Positions 12,012 to 31,085 of a DNA stretch of 64,000 bases are shown here, in pieces. How positions within the stretch are numbered: position 1 is the stretch's first letter; every line of letters begins with the position of its first letter. The translations under genes were made by a program, and so were the position numbers. Below the pieces are notes generated by a model. That model saw only the letters and a list, made by a program, of their open reading frames with translations, had not been told where the DNA came from and did no database searches. The DNA is from Promethearchaeota archaeon (GTDB taxonomy: Archaea; Asgardarchaeota; Lokiarchaeia; Sigyniarchaeales; SOKP01). The DNA is taken from the NCBI GenBank assembly GCA_019058445.1, contig JAHPZA010000009.1:416001-480000 (forward strand), given 5' to 3'.

Positions 12012-12079
12012 ATATAGTGATGTCTGGAGCGTGTATTCGAAAAAGATATTTACAAAATATCTAGAAAATATCTGAATAT
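12012..12079 (+). ncRNA. Possible box C/D-like small RNA
   Basis: Box C-like GTGATGT at 12017-12023, box D CTGA at 12072-12075, a 4-bp ATAT/ATAT terminal stem, and a GC-rich 13-nt guide-like stretch followed by D'-like TCGA (12037-12040). The C' box is poor. Confidence 0.25.
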
Positions 12080-12184: not shown

Positions 12185-13141
12185 TTGGAAAATCTCTTTC
12201 GTACTCTATTAAAAAATTACATGAATGATGTGGATGGGGTAATTGCTATTGCCATATGTGATAGAGATGGATTCATTATCGCTTCTGAGGATAGAGCGGA
12301 ATTTAACAATGAACCTGTAATTGGAGTATTATCGGCAGTATTAGATACTTACATAGATAGAATTAAGGACGAATTTGGAACAACCAGTAATTTTATGAAT
12401 ATCACAACTACTGGAGATAAAAAATTTGCTTATTGCTCTATGGGACCAAACTCAATTTTAACTAGTATTGCAACACAAACTACTACCGATATTGAATTAA
12501 GAGTTTATTCAGAACATATTGCAAGTAAAATAGAGTTAATTATATCTGGAAACGATAAAGTATCCCTTGAAATACCAGAAATTATTAGAACGCTTTCGAA
12601 AGTAAAAGGGGGAAAATTGCCAACAGGAGATTATTCTACTAAACTAATTCTCTGTGGAGATTATATGGTTGGAAAAACTTCTCTCATTAAAAGATTTGTT
12701 GAGGATAAGTTTCAAGAGAGTTATCTCGCTACTTTAGGAGTAGAAATCTCTAAAAAATCGTTAGAATTAGCAGAAACCACAGATATTAATTTTATAATCT
12801 GGGATATCGCAGGACAAAGAACTCAGATGGAAGCATATAAAAGACGTTTTTATAGCGGAGCAAACTCCGCATTTATAGTATTAGATAGAACAAGAGAAGG
12901 TAATTTAAAGAGTATTGAATATTGGTATAAAGATATCAAACAAGCAGTGAGAGGCAATATCCCTATTGTAATTGTCGGAAATAAGTCGGATTTAGAAGAT
13001 AAAATTGTTATTTCTGAGAAAGAGATTAAAGAGATAACTGACAAGTTTGGATTTCACTACATACTGACATCTGCAAAAACAGGTGATAATGTAAATGATG
13101 CCTTTCTTTATATTGCTTACCGTTTTTTAGAAATGGTGTGA
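12185..13141 (+). CDS. Roadblock/LC7 domain-Rab-like small GTPase fusion
   Basis: N-terminal roadblock pattern (DGVIAIAICDRDGFIIAS...GVLSAVL). GTPase motifs: G1 GDYMVGKT, G2 YLATLGVE, G3 WDIAGQ, G4 NKSD, G5 TSAKTG. TTG start. Confidence 0.9.
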   Translation: MENLFRTLLKNYMNDVDGVIAIAICDRDGFIIASEDRAEFNNEPVIGVLSAVLDTYIDRIKDEFGTTSNFMNITTTGDKKFAYCSMGPNSILTSIATQTTTDIELRVYSEHIASKIELIISGNDKVSLEIPEIIRTLSKVKGGKLPTGDYSTKLILCGDYMVGKTSLIKRFVEDKFQESYLATLGVEISKKSLELAETTDINFIIWDIAGQRTQMEAYKRRFYSGANSAFIVLDRTREGNLKSIEYWYKDIKQAVRGNIPIVIVGNKSDLEDKIVISEKEIKEITDKFGFHYILTSAKTGDNVNDAFLYIAYRFLEMV

Positions 13142-13260
13142 TTTTTGATTATGGTTTTAAATTAGAACACACTTCTTTATTAAATTTGTTTTATTAATTA
13201 AACTCAAATTGTTCAAAAAATTGGATTTAAAAATTAAAAAATTACAAGAGGTGGGAGTAA

Positions 13261-14193
13261 ATAGTCTTAACGGTTGCTTTCAATGATATACACGCTCAGT
13301 GAGACACTAGAGGCTATTTAATGGGATTTTCGATAAAAGAGATTACGTTCAAACAAAAATATCTTTTATACTTAACAGAACCAGAGCTGGCAGGTCCGTG
13401 GTTTAGTTTTAAATTAAAGGGAAAAAGGATAGGAACAATACCAGTTGTACTTAAAAATATTGAACCTACCCCGATATATCAGTTAGTAAATAGCAGAAAA
13501 GGTACAAAAATAGATCGTATTACATTAGATTTCGATATTAGGGAATATCTCAAAAAATTGATACGTGAAAATAAATTAAACCCCTTAAAATTTAAAGATG
13601 AAGAACATCTAATCCGATTATACATTGATGTTTTCTTGCGTAGAGGTCAAGCACCATACATGAATACATATTTTACCTTAAAAAATAATTCTGATTTTGA
13701 TTTAATTGACTTTTCTATGATTTTCATATTTGACTTTGATATCAACGGTCTAGAAGGTTTTGACAATGATTTATCTGGATATGATGAAGAGAATAACATA
13801 ATATATCAATATGATAAAACCGGTATTCATGCGGGTTTTTCTACAATTTCTAAACCAACTGGCTTTGAAACAAGCTTAACAAAAGATTTCCATTTAGGAA
13901 AGGGGAGATTAAATTTATCAAATACATTAAATGAAAGTGAAGGTGAAATTCTGTCAGCACTCCAAATTGAATTTAAAACTCTCGAACCAGAACATTCCTT
14001 TCAAACAGCCTTAACGATATCTGGGGGGTATAGTAGAGAAGAATTATTCGAAAATATCATTGAGGGACGGAGAGATGCTATGAAATATCTAAATCAAGTT
14101 TATAGATCTATCAGATCAGAACAGAGGAATAAACAAGAAGTAGCATTTATAAAATTGAACCTCCAAGAAGCTGAAGGGTGTAAAGATTGATAA
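13261..14193 (+). CDS. Candidate selenoprotein of unknown function (beta-rich). The core ORF is 13321..14190; the extended form reads through UGA at 13300 and/or 14188
   Basis: The core 289-aa ORF is solid. The in-frame upstream extension reads ATA GTC TTA ACG GTT GCT TTC AAT GAT ATA CAC GCT CAG TGA GAC ACT AGA GGC TAT TTA ATG, with GAGGTG 7 nt before the ATA. The 3' end is TGT AAA GAT TGA TAA (CKDU*), followed by a SECIS-like hairpin. Confidence refers to the Sec call. Confidence 0.65.
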
Positions 14194-14273
14194 ATCCATT
14201 TTAATGATTCAAATAAAAAAGCCGTTAATGGAAAGTTATTTGAGGAGAGCCTTGTGTTGGTTAGGATTTATTA
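14188..14273 (+). promoter_or_regulatory. Eukaryote-type SECIS element in the 3' UTR
   Basis: Helix I: TGATAAATCC 14188-14197 with GGATTTATTA 14264-14273. Core: ATGAT 14204-14208 opposite GGAG 14244-14247, giving tandem G.A/A.G pairs. Helix II: TCAAATAA 14209-14216 with TTATTTGA 14236-14243. Apical unpaired AAAA at 14217-14220 plus a mini-hairpin CCG-TTAA-TGG. Confidence 0.72.
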
Positions 14274-14336
14274 TAAAAACTATTATATGAGTATAGTAAT
14301 AAAAAATAAAATTAAGAAATTAAAAAAATATTTAAA

Positions 14337-17300
14337 TTATTCTTCTGAATTTTGTTTTGCTTTTAAGGTAAGATAGGTATCTTCAAGGATATTCAGATAT
14401 TCAATTAAAACATTATCGCTTTTAGATTTTTGGTCATATCCATTCTTAATAATTTTCAAAAGGTACTTCGGGAATATGAGATCCAAGTTAAAATCTGAAA
14501 GGAGAGCATAATATTCTGTACTGTTTTTATCTTGAAGGACGGAGATCAAATTCGCTTGCCATAGCTGTTTTAATACTAAGTTAATATCTGTAACACCTTT
14601 CTTTTTAAGCTTCTCTAGTTCGTTTCTAGTGACAATCGCGGTTCTTAATAATCGGAGTGTTTCATAAACTTGGGGATTACCTATAGTCTCAATTACTTTA
14701 ATATTATCTTCTTTAGATGGATGATAAGTTTGGAAGAATTTACTGATCTCATTAGAATATGCCTTTGCAAGCTGTGGTGGTAAACCATGAGCTTCAGGCT
14801 TTTTTAGTAATTCTATTGGAGGAACTCTGATCATATAAATATCATTGATTAAAAAGACCAATTCTGAAGGGAGTCCTTTAATCGAACTTTCTTTGACAAT
14901 CTCCATTTTTACGAGCTCTGCCAGAATATTTGCTAAATCAAAAAACCCTTCTTTGTATTTATCTTTAAGCCAGACCATTAGTTCTGATTTGGAAATAACG
15001 CCTTCTTCTCTAAGCCGATTTATAATCATCCGTTTGATTTCATCTTGATAAATATATGCAATTCGTCCTTCGGCGGTTAGGTTTGGGAACATAGCCAATC
15101 TCTGAAAGAGCGAAGAAATAATATGTAAATAAGAATCATCCTCTAAATTCTGTAAGATAATTCGTAAAATATCTGCCATTGCATCCTCATAAAGATCAGG
15201 ATCATCATCTAAATTTAACACTAAGACAAGGTAATAACCTTTTTCAGCTCCAGTATAGTATGATAAGATATTTGAATTGCCAGCCATTAAATTTACTGCC
15301 CCTGATTCTCCTGTATATTCATGAGTCCCATAGATTTGCATTAATGTCTTTTTAGTAATTTCAATTCCTTCTGGGTATTGAACTACAATTTCAGTACCAA
15401 CTCTTTCATTCCATCTCATAAGAATTAATCCCTTTGGTATAAGATCACTGCTTCTTTTTGTAGCAATGAGTTTTTGCTTTACTTTTAGTACTTCTTCAAC
15501 TTTTTGGATTTTTGTCCCCAGCATAGCTTCCAAAGAAACTCCAATTGTCTGCCATTTATCTTTTACTAAATGGGCCATATACATCTCTTTCGAAGGATAT
15601 AATAGCGAGGTATTGATATCGTCATTATTTTTAATTAATTTTTTCATCGATCTAAGTTTTTTAACAAATTCCGGGATCTTCATCAATTGAATATATTTAT
15701 AGGTCCCAAGACTACCTACGATTGCACCAATAGCCGCAATGAGCAATAGAAGATAAAAAATGGGTATGCTTACTACTCCAGGAATTACTTCGATCTCTTC
15801 CATTTCGATTACAATTGTAATATCAGTGTCTTCTGAAGTGTAATTCGCTTTTGAGATTTTAATAGTTCCAGTAATGGTGTTTGAGGTAAAGAACGCTTCA
15901 TAATCATCAGTTTCAAATTCCACTTCATACACTCCATCCTCAACCTCTTCAAACTCAAGCTCATCATCACCAATCTCTAAAATAACCGTTGCGTCCTTTA
16001 ATGGAATATCTCCCTTGGTTGGATCGGTTAATTCTATTGAAAGTGTAATTGTTTCTCCTTTCACTACACTGGTTTGTTTATCTTCAAACATATCTCCAAG
16101 ATCATACTCGATCTCTCTCTCATTAATAGTTAGAAATATGATTGCCTGTTTCGACTCGTAATTCTGTTTATCTAAAGTAACCCATACCGTATATCTTCCA
16201 ACTGCCATTAATTCAGTATTAATATCTAAAACATATTCACTGTCAGAATTAACATATAAATCTCCAGTTCCATATAAAACTGATTGACCTGCTCTTATTT
16301 CTGTCATTGAATAACTTTGTGTTTCCAAATCGATTATATTGGTAAGATATTGTTCATCAATATAGGAAAAAGTAAAATTTAATTCATCTTGGACATATAT
16401 AACTGGATATAAATCAACATTAATTGATGAATCGCTAATTAATGTCAATCGTTCTTGCACCTCTATCTCCAAATCTTTTGAAATATCCGAGATATAATGT
16501 TCTTTAATTACCTCAAACCGAATGGTATAATCACCGGCATTAATTAAGGAAGTATTTATAGTTTGCTGATAAAATCCTAAATTCTCATAATATTGAACGG
16601 TTCCGGATATATCAGGGGCTTCTCTTATAACATAAGTAACTAATCCAGTAGTTTCATAGAAAACAGTTCTTGAATAACTTATCCTAAAAGAAAGTGTAAA
16701 ATTTACGAGTTGGTTCGTTTCTATAGAAGCTGAATATATTAAATTCTTGTAAATCTTTGCTAGCGAAAATGTCCCTTCTCCTTGAAGAGTATCTGAAATG
16801 CTATACGTTTGCCCTCCAATTGTGATATTCATTGCTAACTCTGATGGAAAAAAATAGTGACTTCCATTGTTTATTTTACTAATCAATAATTCTGTACCTT
16901 GATCGTCAAAATTACTGGTGAAAACAATATTGAATTCTCCTCCATTAGGCAAATCTTGCTTGGATATAGTTGTACTAATATTTTCTAAATGTTGATTCCA
17001 GTAAAATCCTTGATAATATTCAACTGTAATATTGACATCAAACATGATATCTGAAATATTAATAATATCAAAAAAGAATTTATCATCAATTGGATATATC
17101 GTTATATTGTCAATAGTTAAGCCTGCATTTCCATTACCAAGGTATTCTAATGTAAAATTATAACCCTCATTAGTAGTAATTTTTGATATTGCTATAGTTG
17201 GATTAGATATAGGACTCCAATCTGAAGTATTAAAGCAATTATAAATTTCAAAAGTTATGTTTTTAATTATCCAGCCATTAACACATGATAAAATGTTTAT

Positions 17301-30896: not shown

Positions 30897-31085
30897 ATAT
30901 AGAGGTTGATAAGTCTTTATTAATAGATTCAAACAAAAAACACATTGAATGAGAGCTATTTAATGAAGTCCTCGTAAGCGTAAGGATTGATGCTAAAAAA
31001 GAATTAATTATAAAAACTTCATTATATTGTAAGAATTCCTTAAAAAATAAAAAATGATAAAAAAAAGAAAAAGTAATGGTTTAAA

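What the first reader, a model, noticed from the sequence alone, without database searches (positions are those of the whole stretch)
13248..14273. Unannotated candidate selenoprotein with two in-frame UGAs and a eukaryote-type SECIS
Seen in sequence: (1) the 289-aa hypothetical ORF ends TGT-AAA-GAT-TGA-TAA, i.e. Cys-x-x-UGA followed at once by a second stop. (2) An in-frame, coding-like extension IVLTVAFNDIHAQ-UGA-DTRGYL precedes the annotated ATG and sits behind a GAGGTG Shine-Dalgarno. (3) The 3' UTR folds into a SECIS geometry: helix I, AUGA/GA core, 8-bp helix II plus U.G, and an apical A-run about 11 nt from the core with a mini-helix. Established: Lokiarchaeota decode Sec with eukaryote-like 3'-UTR SECIS elements, and CxxU is a typical redox motif. 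The protein does not resemble the families I recognise from them (SelD, HdrA, VhuD, VhuU, Prx-like). Inference: this is a possibly new selenoprotein family with a beta-sandwich-like body and Sec at residue 14 and/or 310. Caveats: the terminal UGA lies inside SECIS helix I, closer than eukaryotic spacing rules allow, so the N-terminal UGA may be the decoded one. That reading needs a non-AUG start.
Basis: partly seen in the sequence, partly recalled or inferred. Interest (0 to 1): 0.92.

Follow-up and report, generated by a model that had tools for sequence, protein, structure and literature searches.

The report
Overlooked Asgard selenoprotein gene with SECIS
A "hypothetical" gene of this Lokiarchaeial genome really starts 60 bases earlier and almost certainly reads one UGA "stop" as selenocysteine with help from a conserved RNA signal at its end; this adds a widespread Asgard protein family that the published selenoprotein lists I could read do not contain.

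Summary
All three observations are in the sequence.

**Upstream UGA (13300-13302) is a selenocysteine codon.**
- It is TGA in 34 of 34 close orthologues and in nearly all of 86 family genomes.
- Codon-periodic conservation runs across it.
- Distant homologues carry Cys there in a CxxC motif, or UGA in CxxU.
- Several lineages lack the annotated Met altogether.

**Translation starts at a conserved AUA (13261)**, 9 nt behind the Shine-Dalgarno site. This gives a 309-residue protein with Sec14.

**The 3' element (14188-14273) meets the published lokiSECIS features.** It has AUGA, a 9-bp stem, an A-run, an AG at the loop end and a GA, plus a ministem and a side hairpin. It covaries in 32 loci and was not detected in the Cys-form loci.

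**The genome has the Sec machinery:** SepSecS, EFSec, a PSTK-like gene, Sec-containing SelD and a tRNA(UCA).

**The terminal UGA is an ordinary stop.** Most orthologues have TAA or TAG there.

The body is a stand-alone supersandwich fold, like the GH94/GH15 N-domain, with no Pfam family. The gene always follows a Roadblock-Ras GTPase gene. Its biochemical function is inferred only.

The scan has noted this family before on other genomes.

The parts
13248..13253 (+). Shine-Dalgarno-like GAGGTG serving the true start
   Evidence: Read. Orthologues have GGAGGT or AGGAGG at the same place. The 9-nt spacing from GAGG to ATA falls in the 8-10 nt peak of GGAGG-to-ATG spacings in this genome.
13261..13263 (+). 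Inferred start codon ATA (AUA), residue 1
   Evidence: ATA at this aligned position, or one codon later in L015, in about 25 of 34 close orthologues. It is ATG in L038 and ATC in L028; GTG one codon later in genus g8. In-frame stops lie just upstream in many loci, including TAA 13258 here. Codon periodicity begins here. Cys-form homologues start with ATG at the same aligned position.
13261..14190 (+). Full coding sequence: 309 codons plus stop, Sec at codon 14
   Evidence: Read-through translation aligns end to end with 36 homologues (A3). AlphaFold2 model has pLDDT 90.3 and pTM 0.89, with the new N-terminal strand (residues 3-7) modelled as a beta-strand; blocks 1-10 and 11-20 have pLDDT 83 and 62.
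13300..13302 (+). Selenocysteine codon UGA (residue 14)
   Evidence: TGA in 34 of 34 orthologues, zero entropy at all three positions. 1 TGA inside the match in nearly all of 86 family-f1 genomes. Aligned with Cys of CxxC in family f2 and with U of CxxU in g8, f4, f12 and f21.
13321..13323 (+). ATG used by public annotation (internal Met21)
   Evidence: Database homologues are called as 286-292-aa proteins from MGFSIK. This codon is TTC (Phe) in g8, Arg in f4 and Phe in f2, so it cannot be the family's start.
14179..14181 (+). Conserved C-terminal Cys307, candidate resolving cysteine
   Evidence: Nearly invariant column C307 in A3. The tail is absent from the shorter f12 and f21 forms.
14188..14193 (+). 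Terminal stop UGA plus back-up UAA (not Sec)
   Evidence: The stop is TAA or TAG in 29 of 34 orthologues. C-x-x-TGA-TAA occurs only in L012-L014. It pairs within helix I of the SECIS.
14188..14273 (+). SECIS element (lokiSECIS-like, type II, with side hairpin). Helix I 14188-97/14264-73; AUGA 14204-07; helix II 14208-16/14236-44; A-run 14217-20; ministem 14222-23/14230-31; GA 14245-46; side hairpin 14248-51/14259-62.
   Evidence: The same architecture is predicted separately in most of the 32 orthologues folded. Alignments A1, A2 and A4; model R1 scores 56-92 bits in all 32 loci, though these are the loci it was built from. It finds nothing in the Cys-form loci. 15 of 20 pairs change on both sides, and 0 of 500 shuffles reach the observed values.
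12185..13141 (+). Upstream neighbour: Roadblock/LC7 plus Ras-family GTPase fusion (conserved synteny partner, not part of the gene)
   Evidence: Pfam Ras 2.3e-38; Robl_LC7 weak. Directly upstream on the same strand in families f1 and f2, with 83-201 nt between the genes in the f1 loci measured.

Best explanation
Window 13261-14190 encodes a 309-residue cytosolic selenoprotein.

How it is made:
- Translation starts at a conserved near-cognate AUA codon, 9 nt behind a Shine-Dalgarno site.
- The UGA at codon 14 is recoded to selenocysteine. The machinery is the archaeal/eukaryal-type set: SepSecS, PSTK, EFSec and a tRNA with anticodon UCA.
- Recoding is directed from about 900 nt away by a lokiSECIS-type kink-turn element that begins at the stop codon.
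- The terminal UGA-UAA is a normal double stop.

What the protein is (shown): a stand-alone supersandwich of the fold seen in the N-terminal domains of GH94, GH15 and GH116 enzymes. Sec14 follows the first beta-strand, in the least confidently modelled stretch of the N-terminus. A short helical C-terminal tail ends in a conserved Cys.

What it does (inferred, not shown): Sec14 is a redox-active nucleophile. It forms a selenenylsulfide with the Cys three residues upstream in the lineages that keep CxxU or CxxC. In this lineage, which has lost that Cys, it would pair with the C-terminal Cys307. The protein probably acts together with the Roadblock-Ras GTPase encoded directly upstream.
For: **Recoding.**
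- TGA is invariant in 34 of 34 orthologues at 44-92% protein identity. The real stop varies between TAA, TAG and TGA.
- Third-position entropy is high and first- and second-position entropy is low from codon -13 to +11. This pattern runs across the TGA and is lost upstream.
- The column is Cys (CxxC) in nine family-f2 homologues. It is U in CxxU in g8, f4, f12 and f21. It is the only invariant Cys/Sec column of alignment A3.
- The annotated Met is Phe or Arg in those lineages, so their ORFs must cross the position.
- 1 TGA lies inside the match in nearly all of 86 f1 genomes.

**SECIS.**
- It matches the lokiSECIS features listed by Mariotti 2016 (PMC4989117): AUGA, 9-bp stem, A-rich loop start, AG at the loop end, GA.
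- It fits the type II model of Huang 2024 (PMC11227280).
- It is conserved with covariation in 32 loci.
- L027 and L029 have the same layout (AUGA_GA core, stem, A-rich loop, GC hairpin) with unrelated stem sequence.
- Neither model R1 nor inspection found it in the Cys-form loci.

**Machinery.**
- SepSecS E 1e-113, a PSTK-like gene, and SelD with in-frame UGA at the canonical site.
- EFSec at 242 bits.
- A tRNA with anticodon UCA, a 9-bp acceptor stem and a long variable arm lies between SepSecS and EFSec.

**Start.**

**Fold.** pLDDT 90.3. VIA-align Z 18-20, rmsd 2.3-3.2 A over 212-237 residues, against GH15, GH94 and GH116 N-domains. Foldseek E 1e-8.

**Synteny.**
Against: - There is no direct evidence: no proteomics, 75Se labelling or RNA data, and no RNA run holds the locus.
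- AUA is a poor initiator in the systems studied (my knowledge, not tested here). The start rests on comparative inference only.
- Rfam finds no SECIS family here at E<=10. Mariotti 2016 reports the same for the accepted lokiSECIS elements.
- The candidate tRNA-Sec scores only 28 bits against Rfam tRNA-Sec, where the cut-off is 47.
- In this genus the CxxU partner Cys is missing (His11), so the redox-pair chemistry is conjecture.
- No model coordinates were available to measure the Sec14-Cys307 distance.
- The biochemical function is unknown.
Confidence: 0.88

Rival explanations
1. The upstream frame is a conserved 13-codon leader ORF that ends at UGA 13300. The main protein starts at ATG 13321, as annotated.
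For: Public annotation calls all homologues from MGFSIK. In this genome an AGAGG lies 7 nt before the ATG. AUA is an unusual start codon.
Against: - The ATG is absent in g8, f4, f2 and f12.
- The six codons between the UGA and the ATG are conserved at the amino-acid level with synonymous variation: Gly, Tyr and Leu codons vary at the third position.
- The stop is never TAA or TAG.
- Cys codons replace it in f2 within one continuous ORF.
- The AGAGG is just the Arg-Gly codons of this species and is not conserved.
- The N-terminal strand (residues 3-7) is modelled as a beta-strand; pLDDT of residues 1-10 is 83.
Confidence: 0.04
2. Both UGAs are selenocysteine codons, and the protein ends Cys-Lys-Asp-Sec (residue 310).
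For: C-x-x-UGA followed by UAA is present here and in the two or three nearest relatives, L012-L014. A SECIS is present in the same mRNA.
Against: - It is not conserved: the stop is TAA or TAG in 29 of 34 orthologues. L024 and L028 use UGA as a stop without the C-x-x spacing.
- The UGA pairs within helix I, 14 nt before the AUGA core. A ribosome decoding it would have unfolded the element (steric argument is inference).
- In family f12 the terminating UGA is itself part of the AUGA core, and the frame beyond it is not conserved as protein.
Confidence: 0.05
3. The UGA is read through by a mechanism that does not insert selenocysteine, for example near-cognate Trp or Cys insertion or a local reassignment. 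The 3' element would have another role, such as a terminator or a stability element.
For: No direct chemical evidence for selenium in the protein. Rfam gives no SECIS match.
Against: - UGA is a normal stop in this genome. The upstream GTPase gene and this gene itself end in TGA.
- The 3' element has the AUGA_GA core and the other lokiSECIS hallmarks.
- It co-occurs with UGA forms and was not detected by R1 or inspection in the Cys forms.
- The genome keeps a full Sec pathway and a Sec-SelD.
- Sec/Cys exchange at a CxxC site is the classic selenoprotein signature.
Confidence: 0.03

Closest known systems
Lokiarchaeial selenoprotein genes with lokiSECIS (SPS/SelD, VhuU, VhuD, HdrA, PrxL; Mariotti et al. 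2016, PMC4989117; Asgard eSECIS-like models, Huang et al. 2024, PMC11227280)
   Same: - An in-frame UGA is decoded from a 3'-UTR element placed right after the stop.
- The element has AUGA before a 9-bp stem, an A-run at the loop start, AG at the loop end and GA after the stem.
- Long-range action is precedented. Mariotti 2016 describes HdrA and VhuD sharing a single element downstream of VhuD.
- The organism group and Sec machinery are the same.
   Different: - The protein family is none of the seven listed. It has no Pfam or NCBIfam hit and a different fold.
- Sec lies 13 codons from the start.
- The start is a conserved AUA.
- The apical region is 19 nt with a covarying ministem, not the fixed 11-nt loop.
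- A covarying side hairpin sits between the core and the 3' arm of helix I. I did not find this described in those papers. The SelD 3' UTR of this genome has a similar hairpin.
SPS/SelD lokiSECIS (type II-like; Mariotti 2016, Fig. 5 text)
   Same: [quoted passage not shown] UGAGAA followed by a small hairpin with a UGCGC loop, like the ...UGAUGAA plus UGCGC-loop hairpin of many orthologues of this gene.
   Different: The published SPS element has a shorter main stem; here the stem is the full 9 pairs. Model R1, built from this family, does not score the SelD element, so the likeness is one of layout, not of sequence.
N-terminal supersandwich domain of GH94 phosphorylases, GH15 glucoamylases/glucodextranase and GH116 beta-glucosidase (galactose-mutarotase-like fold)
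   Same: Same fold over residues 1-280. VIA-align Z 18-20, rmsd 2.3-3.2 A, 212-237 aligned residues, against 8rf9, 1ulv, 1lf6, 8bou and 7w2t. Foldseek E about 1e-8. The language-model search gives a GH94 supersandwich/SOGP_N lead at 0.84.
   Different: - Sequence identity is only 10-15% and there is no Pfam match.
- It stands alone, with no (alpha/alpha)6 catalytic domain.
- It carries a Sec/Cys motif and a Cys-ended tail that those domains are not known to have.
- A shared fold shows no function.
Eukaryotic Rdx-type selenoproteins (SelW, SelT, SelH, SelV) with N-terminal CxxU
   Same: CxxU or CxxC lies a few residues after the first beta-strand, about residues 10-14 (my knowledge of SelW; PMC8508763 abstract gives the CXXU motif). 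Cys homologues exist.
   Different: The fold is not thioredoxin-like, and no sequence relation was found. In this genome's lineage the first Cys of the motif is lost. The resemblance concerns position and probable chemistry only.

Membership tests
Selenoprotein gene (UGA recoded to Sec) | In-frame UGA with protein-level conservation on both sides | tested here: met
   TGA in 34 of 34 orthologues. Codon periodicity runs from codon -13 to +11 across it. 1 TGA inside the match in nearly all of 86 f1 genomes.
Selenoprotein gene (UGA recoded to Sec) | Cys-containing homologues aligned with the UGA | tested here: met
   Nine f2 homologues have CxxC with the second Cys in the UGA column. It is an invariant column of A3.
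Selenoprotein gene (UGA recoded to Sec) | SECIS element in the same transcript unit, lost in Cys forms | tested here: met
   A conserved, covarying element follows the stop in 32 loci. Model R1 and inspection found none in the Cys-form loci.
Selenoprotein gene (UGA recoded to Sec) | Sec machinery in the genome (SepSecS, PSTK, EFSec, SelD, tRNA-Sec) | tested here: met
   SepSecS E 1e-113. PSTK-like at 149 bits, below the curated cut-off. SelD with UGA. EFSec at 242 bits. tRNA(UCA) with a 9-bp acceptor at C6:1059799-1059877, though Rfam scores it only 28 bits.
Selenoprotein gene (UGA recoded to Sec) | Selenium shown in the protein (75Se labelling, mass spectrometry) | not testable with these tools
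   No proteomic data were available, and no RNA run was listed for the locus.
lokiSECIS / Asgard eSECIS-like element | AUGA directly before the main stem and GA directly after it | tested here: met
   AUGA is invariant in 32 of 32 loci. GA after the stem is invariant or nearly so (A1, A2). In the window: 14204-07 and 14245-46.
lokiSECIS / Asgard eSECIS-like element | 9-bp main stem (Mariotti 2016) or 7-15 bp with at most 2 mismatches (Huang 2024) | tested here: met
   8 Watson-Crick pairs plus U.G here, or U.U in most orthologues, next to the core. 88.9% of cells are paired.
lokiSECIS / Asgard eSECIS-like element | A-rich first nucleotides of the apical region; G at its last position, preceded by A | tested here: met
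   AAAA(G) at 14217-21 and AAAG at 14232-35. The consensus is ...TAAAAAA..GGAAAGTTATTTGA. The final G is present in most orthologues, not all.
lokiSECIS / Asgard eSECIS-like element | Fixed 11-nt apical loop (type I lokiSECIS) | tested here: not met
   The apical region is 19 nt with a covarying 2-4-bp ministem. It fits the type II model instead: bulge 4-12 nt, ministem 2-8 bp, loop 2-6 nt.
Eukaryotic/bacterial SECIS families of Rfam | Match to a curated covariance model | tested here: not met
   No SECIS family at E<=10 on 13100-14500. Mariotti 2016 reports that existing tools also miss the accepted lokiSECIS elements.
The seven published Asgard selenoprotein families (SelD, FrhA/VhuU, HdrA, FrhD/VhuD, Prx-like, DsbA-like, AhpF-N homologue) | Sequence or domain homology to one of them | tested here: not met
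   No Pfam or NCBIfam hit for the Sec, Cys or f4 forms at E<=1. The fold is a supersandwich.
GH94/GH15/GH116 N-terminal supersandwich (PF06165 and relatives) | Same three-dimensional fold | tested here: met
   Z 18-20, rmsd 2.3-3.2 A over 212-237 residues.
GH94/GH15/GH116 N-terminal supersandwich (PF06165 and relatives) | Recognisable sequence family membership and an attached catalytic domain | tested here: not met
   No Pfam match. The protein is 309 residues and stands alone.

The most novel reading that the evidence does not exclude
The family is a selenium-dependent redox switch wired to a small GTPase. Sec14, paired with Cys11 or with the C-terminal Cys307, would sense or transmit redox state to the Roadblock-Ras GTPase encoded directly upstream. 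That gene pair is conserved across two Lokiarchaeial families, in both Sec and Cys forms. The conserved weak AUA start would keep initiation slow enough for Sec decoding only 13 codons downstream. This would be an archaeal precursor of redox-regulated small-GTPase signalling, carried on a fold not otherwise used by selenoproteins.
Probability: 0.12. Interest if true: 0.9.

Novelty: new member of a known kind. Interest (0 to 1): 0.8.

Why it matters
**An addition to a short list.** Published surveys list only five to seven selenoprotein families for Asgard archaea (PMC4989117, PMC11227280, PMC13188914). All were found by homology to known families. This gene belongs to a further family:
- It is Asgard-specific.
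- It is present in most genomes of this Lokiarchaeial family (86 of 95 sampled) and, in shorter CxxU forms, in another class (70 of 86 sampled).
- Gene callers cut it at the UGA everywhere.

**Consequences.**
- Asgard selenoproteomes are undercounted.
- Selenocysteine now appears on a supersandwich fold, outside the usual thioredoxin-like and hydrogenase contexts.
- There is a large covarying set of natural SECIS variants for defining what the SBP2-less Asgard decoding system recognises. These include a ministem, a side hairpin, and a stop codon inside the AUGA core.

**Practical and open points.**
- Annotation pipelines should extend these ORFs.

Tried and rejected
- **Rfam.** A scan of 13100-14500 at E<=10 gave only chance snoRNA and sRNA hits and no SECIS.
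- **Model R1 on the own genome.** It found only the element itself. The three weak hits (C10:669391, window 30910-30993, C6:233347) lack an AUGA core and are noise. R1 also missed the SelD and VhuU 3' UTRs and the variant elements of L027 and L029, so it is family-specific.
- **ARAGORN tRNA-SeC call.** The call at C1:27020-27126 was rejected. It is a tRNA-Ser(UGA) with a canonical intron and a 7-bp acceptor stem.
- **FlpD/VhuD and NiFe large-subunit searches.** These were meant to collect further SECIS examples. They gave Cys forms or split genes. Only a VhuU-like small ORF with UGA was seen, and its 3' UTR was not resolved.
- **Descriptor hit at window 32168 (minus strand).** It lies inside a giant coding gene and is chance.
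The 10-nt complementarity of 12027-12036 to 13288-13297 is not kept in L013, which has the identical target. Reverse-complement 10-mers are common in the window.
- **Complex prediction, Roadblock-GTPase with the 289-residue part of the protein.** No verdict: 0.18 against a mark of 0.32.
- **RNA evidence.** No RNA holder is listed for the locus; only sediment and soil DNA runs hold it.
- **Atlas fold search.** It failed three times with a machine error.
- **Sec14-Cys307 distance.** No model coordinates are exposed, so it could not be measured.
Full report
**What is in the window**

The 289-codon ORF 13321-14190 ends TGT AAA GAT TGA and is followed at once by TAA. In the same frame, 13 sense codons (13261-13299) precede a TGA at 13300-13302. 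Six more codons lead to the annotated ATG. TAA at 13258 closes the frame upstream, and GAGGTG lies at 13248-13253. The region has about 31% G+C. The window is contig C9:416001-480000 of a 4.6-Mb genome that is 92.6% complete. The nearest database proteins are labelled Promethearchaeota or Lokiarchaeota and are all called as 286-292-residue hypothetical proteins starting at MGFSIK.

**The upstream UGA is a sense codon**

I fetched orthologous loci from 61 related genomes and read the frames.

- In all 34 loci of the same family (44-92% protein identity), the codon seven positions before the MGFSIK Met is TGA.
- The peptide on both sides is conserved: (I/M)VLKVxFN(D/E)I(F/L)A(T/Q)-UGA-N(T/A)xGYL-MGFSIK.
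- Per-codon entropies show the coding signature from codon -13 to +11. Third positions vary; first and second positions hardly do.
- The TGA has zero entropy, and the periodicity disappears upstream of codon -13.
- The real stop codon of the same genes varies freely: TAA in most, also TAG and TGA.

More distant homologues confirm this reading.

- Nine loci of a second family (f2) have one continuous ORF with ...DYETIC(V/I)NCKEKGYSFGY.... The second Cys of its CxxC lies in the UGA column.
- Genus g8 of the own family and a third family (f4) have CxxU.
- In f2, f4 and g8 the "annotated" Met is Phe or Arg, so translation must come from upstream.
- In alignment A3 (37 sequences) the Sec/Cys column is invariant.

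A phylum-wide search extends the picture.

- A single TGA lies inside the match in nearly all of 86 genomes of the own family.
- Shorter homologues occur in 70 of 86 sampled genomes of another class-level family (f12) and in family f21.
- Reading twelve of those loci showed E-C-x-x-U-G and C-S-K-U motifs at the same place.
- Genomes with the Cys form still have SepSecS. The Cys form is therefore an ordinary Sec/Cys alternative, not a loss of the trait.

**The start**

About 25 of the 34 close orthologues have ATA at the codon 13 positions before the UGA (one codon later in L015). L038 has ATG there and L028 has ATC. Genus g8 has GTG one codon later, and a few have ATG, GTG or TTG two to four codons earlier.

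- Many loci, including this window, have an in-frame stop within three codons upstream of the ATA.
- No ATG, GTG or TTG lies between the ATA and the UGA.
- GGAGGT or AGGAGG precedes the ATA. Here GAGG ends 9 nt before it, within the 8-10 nt peak of GGAGG-to-ATG spacings in this genome.
- The Cys forms start with ATG at the equivalent aligned position.

I therefore place the start at ATA 13261. This gives 309 residues with Sec at 14. The inference is comparative only. AUA is a weak initiator in the systems studied (my knowledge).

**The 3' element**

The window's 3' flank folds alone into the following:

- helix I, 14188-97 with 14264-73;
- an internal loop;
- AUGA, 14204-07;
- a 9-pair helix II;
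- AAAA(G);
- a 2-bp ministem;
- AAAG;
- GA, 14245-46;
- a side hairpin, 14248-62.

Most of the 32 orthologues folded separately give the same architecture. The alignment shows AUGA invariant and ...UAAAAAA...GGAAAG-UUAUUUGA-UGAA nearly so.

On the model-fitted alignment, 15 of 20 pairs change on both sides. 84% of cells pair, against 30-53% when the partners are slid. None of 500 shuffles reaches the observed values. That alignment is fitted to the structure, so the counts lean towards it. However, helix I, the ministem and the side hairpin plainly use different sequences in different loci: CCUG/CAGG, CUC/GAG, CCUCU/AGAGG and ACCA/UGGU.

L027 and L029 carry the same layout (AUGA_GA core, stem, A-rich loop, a GC hairpin) with unrelated stem sequence. 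The Cys-form loci show nothing comparable.

The features match those Mariotti et al. list for lokiSECIS: AUGA, 9-bp stem, five A-rich loop nucleotides, G preceded by A at the loop end, GA, and a position next to the stop. The longer apical region with a ministem fits the type II model of Huang et al.. Rfam has no match, as expected from Mariotti's remark that standard tools miss these elements.

A strict descriptor occurs about once per 140 kb by chance. Even the single-sequence observation is therefore unlikely to be accidental.

**Machinery**

- SepSecS: E 1e-113.
- A PSTK-like gene.
- SelD with UGA at the canonical ...HGU-SCK... site.
- EFSec: 242 bits.
- A tRNA with anticodon UCA, a 9-bp acceptor stem and a long variable arm, lying between SepSecS and EFSec on contig C6.

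The tRNA scores below Rfam's cut-off. ARAGORN's "tRNA-SeC" on C1 is a tRNA-Ser with an intron. UGA is otherwise a normal stop here; for example, the upstream GTPase gene ends in TGA.

**The terminal UGA**

C-x-x-UGA-UAA occurs only in this genome and its two or three nearest relatives. 29 of 34 orthologues end in TAA or TAG. Two others use UGA without the C-x-x spacing.

The codon pairs inside helix I, 14 nt before the AUGA core. In family f12 the terminating UGA together with the preceding A actually forms the AUGA core. A UGA at the SECIS thus serves as a terminator. I read 14188-14193 as a double stop.

**The protein**

- It has no Pfam or NCBIfam family.
- The AlphaFold2 model from A3 has pLDDT 90.3 and pTM 0.89. 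The new N-terminal strand (residues 3-7) is modelled as a beta-strand. The Sec region is less certain, with pLDDT about 62 for residues 11-20. C-terminal helices lead to a floppy tail.
- The body is a supersandwich like the N-terminal domains of GH15, GH94 and GH116 enzymes: Z 18-20, rmsd 2.3-3.2 A, 212-237 residues (Foldseek).
- Besides Sec/Cys14, the invariant residues include Arg86, Thr88, Asp123, Asn142, Asp158, Asp160, Gly163, Asp170, Gln183 and Arg289. Cys307 is nearly invariant in the Lokiarchaeial families but absent from the shorter f12 and f21 forms.
- Most of the own family has lost the first Cys of CxxU (Leu, Phe or His instead). This makes Cys307 the obvious candidate partner for Sec14. 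That is inference.

**Context**

A Roadblock/LC7 plus Ras-family GTPase gene lies directly upstream on the same strand in the Sec family (f1) and the Cys family (f2). In the f1 loci measured the genes are 83-201 nt apart. It was not seen in the short flanks available for f4. The association suggests a functional link, but I could not test it.

**Comparison with the literature**

Mariotti 2016 found five families in Lokiarchaeota. Huang 2024 found seven in more than 400 Asgard genomes, by homology to known selenoproteins. Sun 2021, the wetland Asgard study and the 2026 review add none like this. Within the library I could search, the family is unreported.

Earlier notes of this scan describe the same family on other genomes, both Lokiarchaeial and Thorarchaeial forms. 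They agree with what I found but are not independent evidence.

**Verdict**

This is a real selenoprotein gene of an unlisted family. It uses the known Asgard decoding mechanism, with some unusual details:

- Sec at residue 14;
- an AUA start;
- a type II lokiSECIS with a side hairpin;
- a supersandwich fold;
- fixed GTPase synteny.

Noticed in passing
L079-L086, L089, L090 (family f12 genomes): About 267-residue homologues with E-C-x-x-U-G at the N-terminus and no Cys tail. Their terminating UGA is always preceded by A, so the stop codon is part of the AUGA core of the SECIS. An 8-bp stem, a GUAAAGC..GCA loop, GA and a side hairpin with an AAGCA loop follow directly.
   Followed up: partly
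L042, L047, L053 (family f4): CxxU forms of the protein carry a different conserved hairpin (CCCAAG-UWGC-CCUUGGG) right after the stop. It has no obvious AUGA_GA core and may be another SECIS type. No GTPase gene was seen in the short upstream flank.
   Followed up: no
L027 and L029, 3' UTRs: Orthologues whose SECIS has the same layout (AUGA_GA core, stem, A-rich loop, a GC hairpin) but an unrelated stem sequence, for example AAAGGAUU/AAUCCUUU. This amounts to a natural compensatory replacement of the whole stem.
   Followed up: partly
G000 contig C6:1056455-1065010: Sec machinery cluster within 9 kb: SepSecS (minus strand), a tRNA with anticodon UCA, 9-bp acceptor and long variable arm at 1059799-1059877 (minus strand), and EFSec (plus strand). 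The tRNA reaches only 28 bits against Rfam tRNA-Sec.
   Followed up: partly
G000 C1:27020-27126 (L011 221-326): ARAGORN in intron mode calls this tRNA-SeC(tca). It reads better as tRNA-Ser(UGA) with a canonical intron pairing with the anticodon, a 7-bp acceptor and a long variable arm.
   Followed up: yes
L068 (G000 C3, downstream of the NiFe hydrogenase large subunit at 157482-157718): A roughly 50-codon VhuU-like ORF with ...CFDC-UGA-LSCAAH.... This is the split selenocysteine-bearing C-terminal piece of the hydrogenase large subunit. I did not resolve its SECIS.
   Followed up: partly
whole genome G000: A strict SECIS descriptor (ATGA, 9-nt arm, A-rich loop start, GA) gives 127 hits against 61-74 in shuffles. 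The hits include the SelD 3' UTR. The excess suggests further SECIS elements and uncalled selenoprotein genes.
   Followed up: no
window 12012-12079: A C/D-box-like element (GUGAUG ... CUGA) sits in the spacer before the GTPase gene, and its box region is conserved in L013 and L014. Its 10-nt complementarity to 13288-13297, next to the Sec codon, is not kept in L013 although the target there is identical. The match looks like chance.
   Followed up: partly
window 12185-13141 and orthologous loci: The Roadblock/LC7 plus Ras-family GTPase fusion gene is always immediately upstream of the selenoprotein gene or its Cys form, across two families of the order. Here the GTPase gene starts with TTG.
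   Followed up: partly
whole genome G000: Only about 7% of ORFs of 200 or more codons have a GGAGG-like motif within 22 nt of their first ATG. Shine-Dalgarno-led starts therefore seem to be a minority, and this gene is one of them. This is a rough count with first-ATG starts.
   Followed up: no
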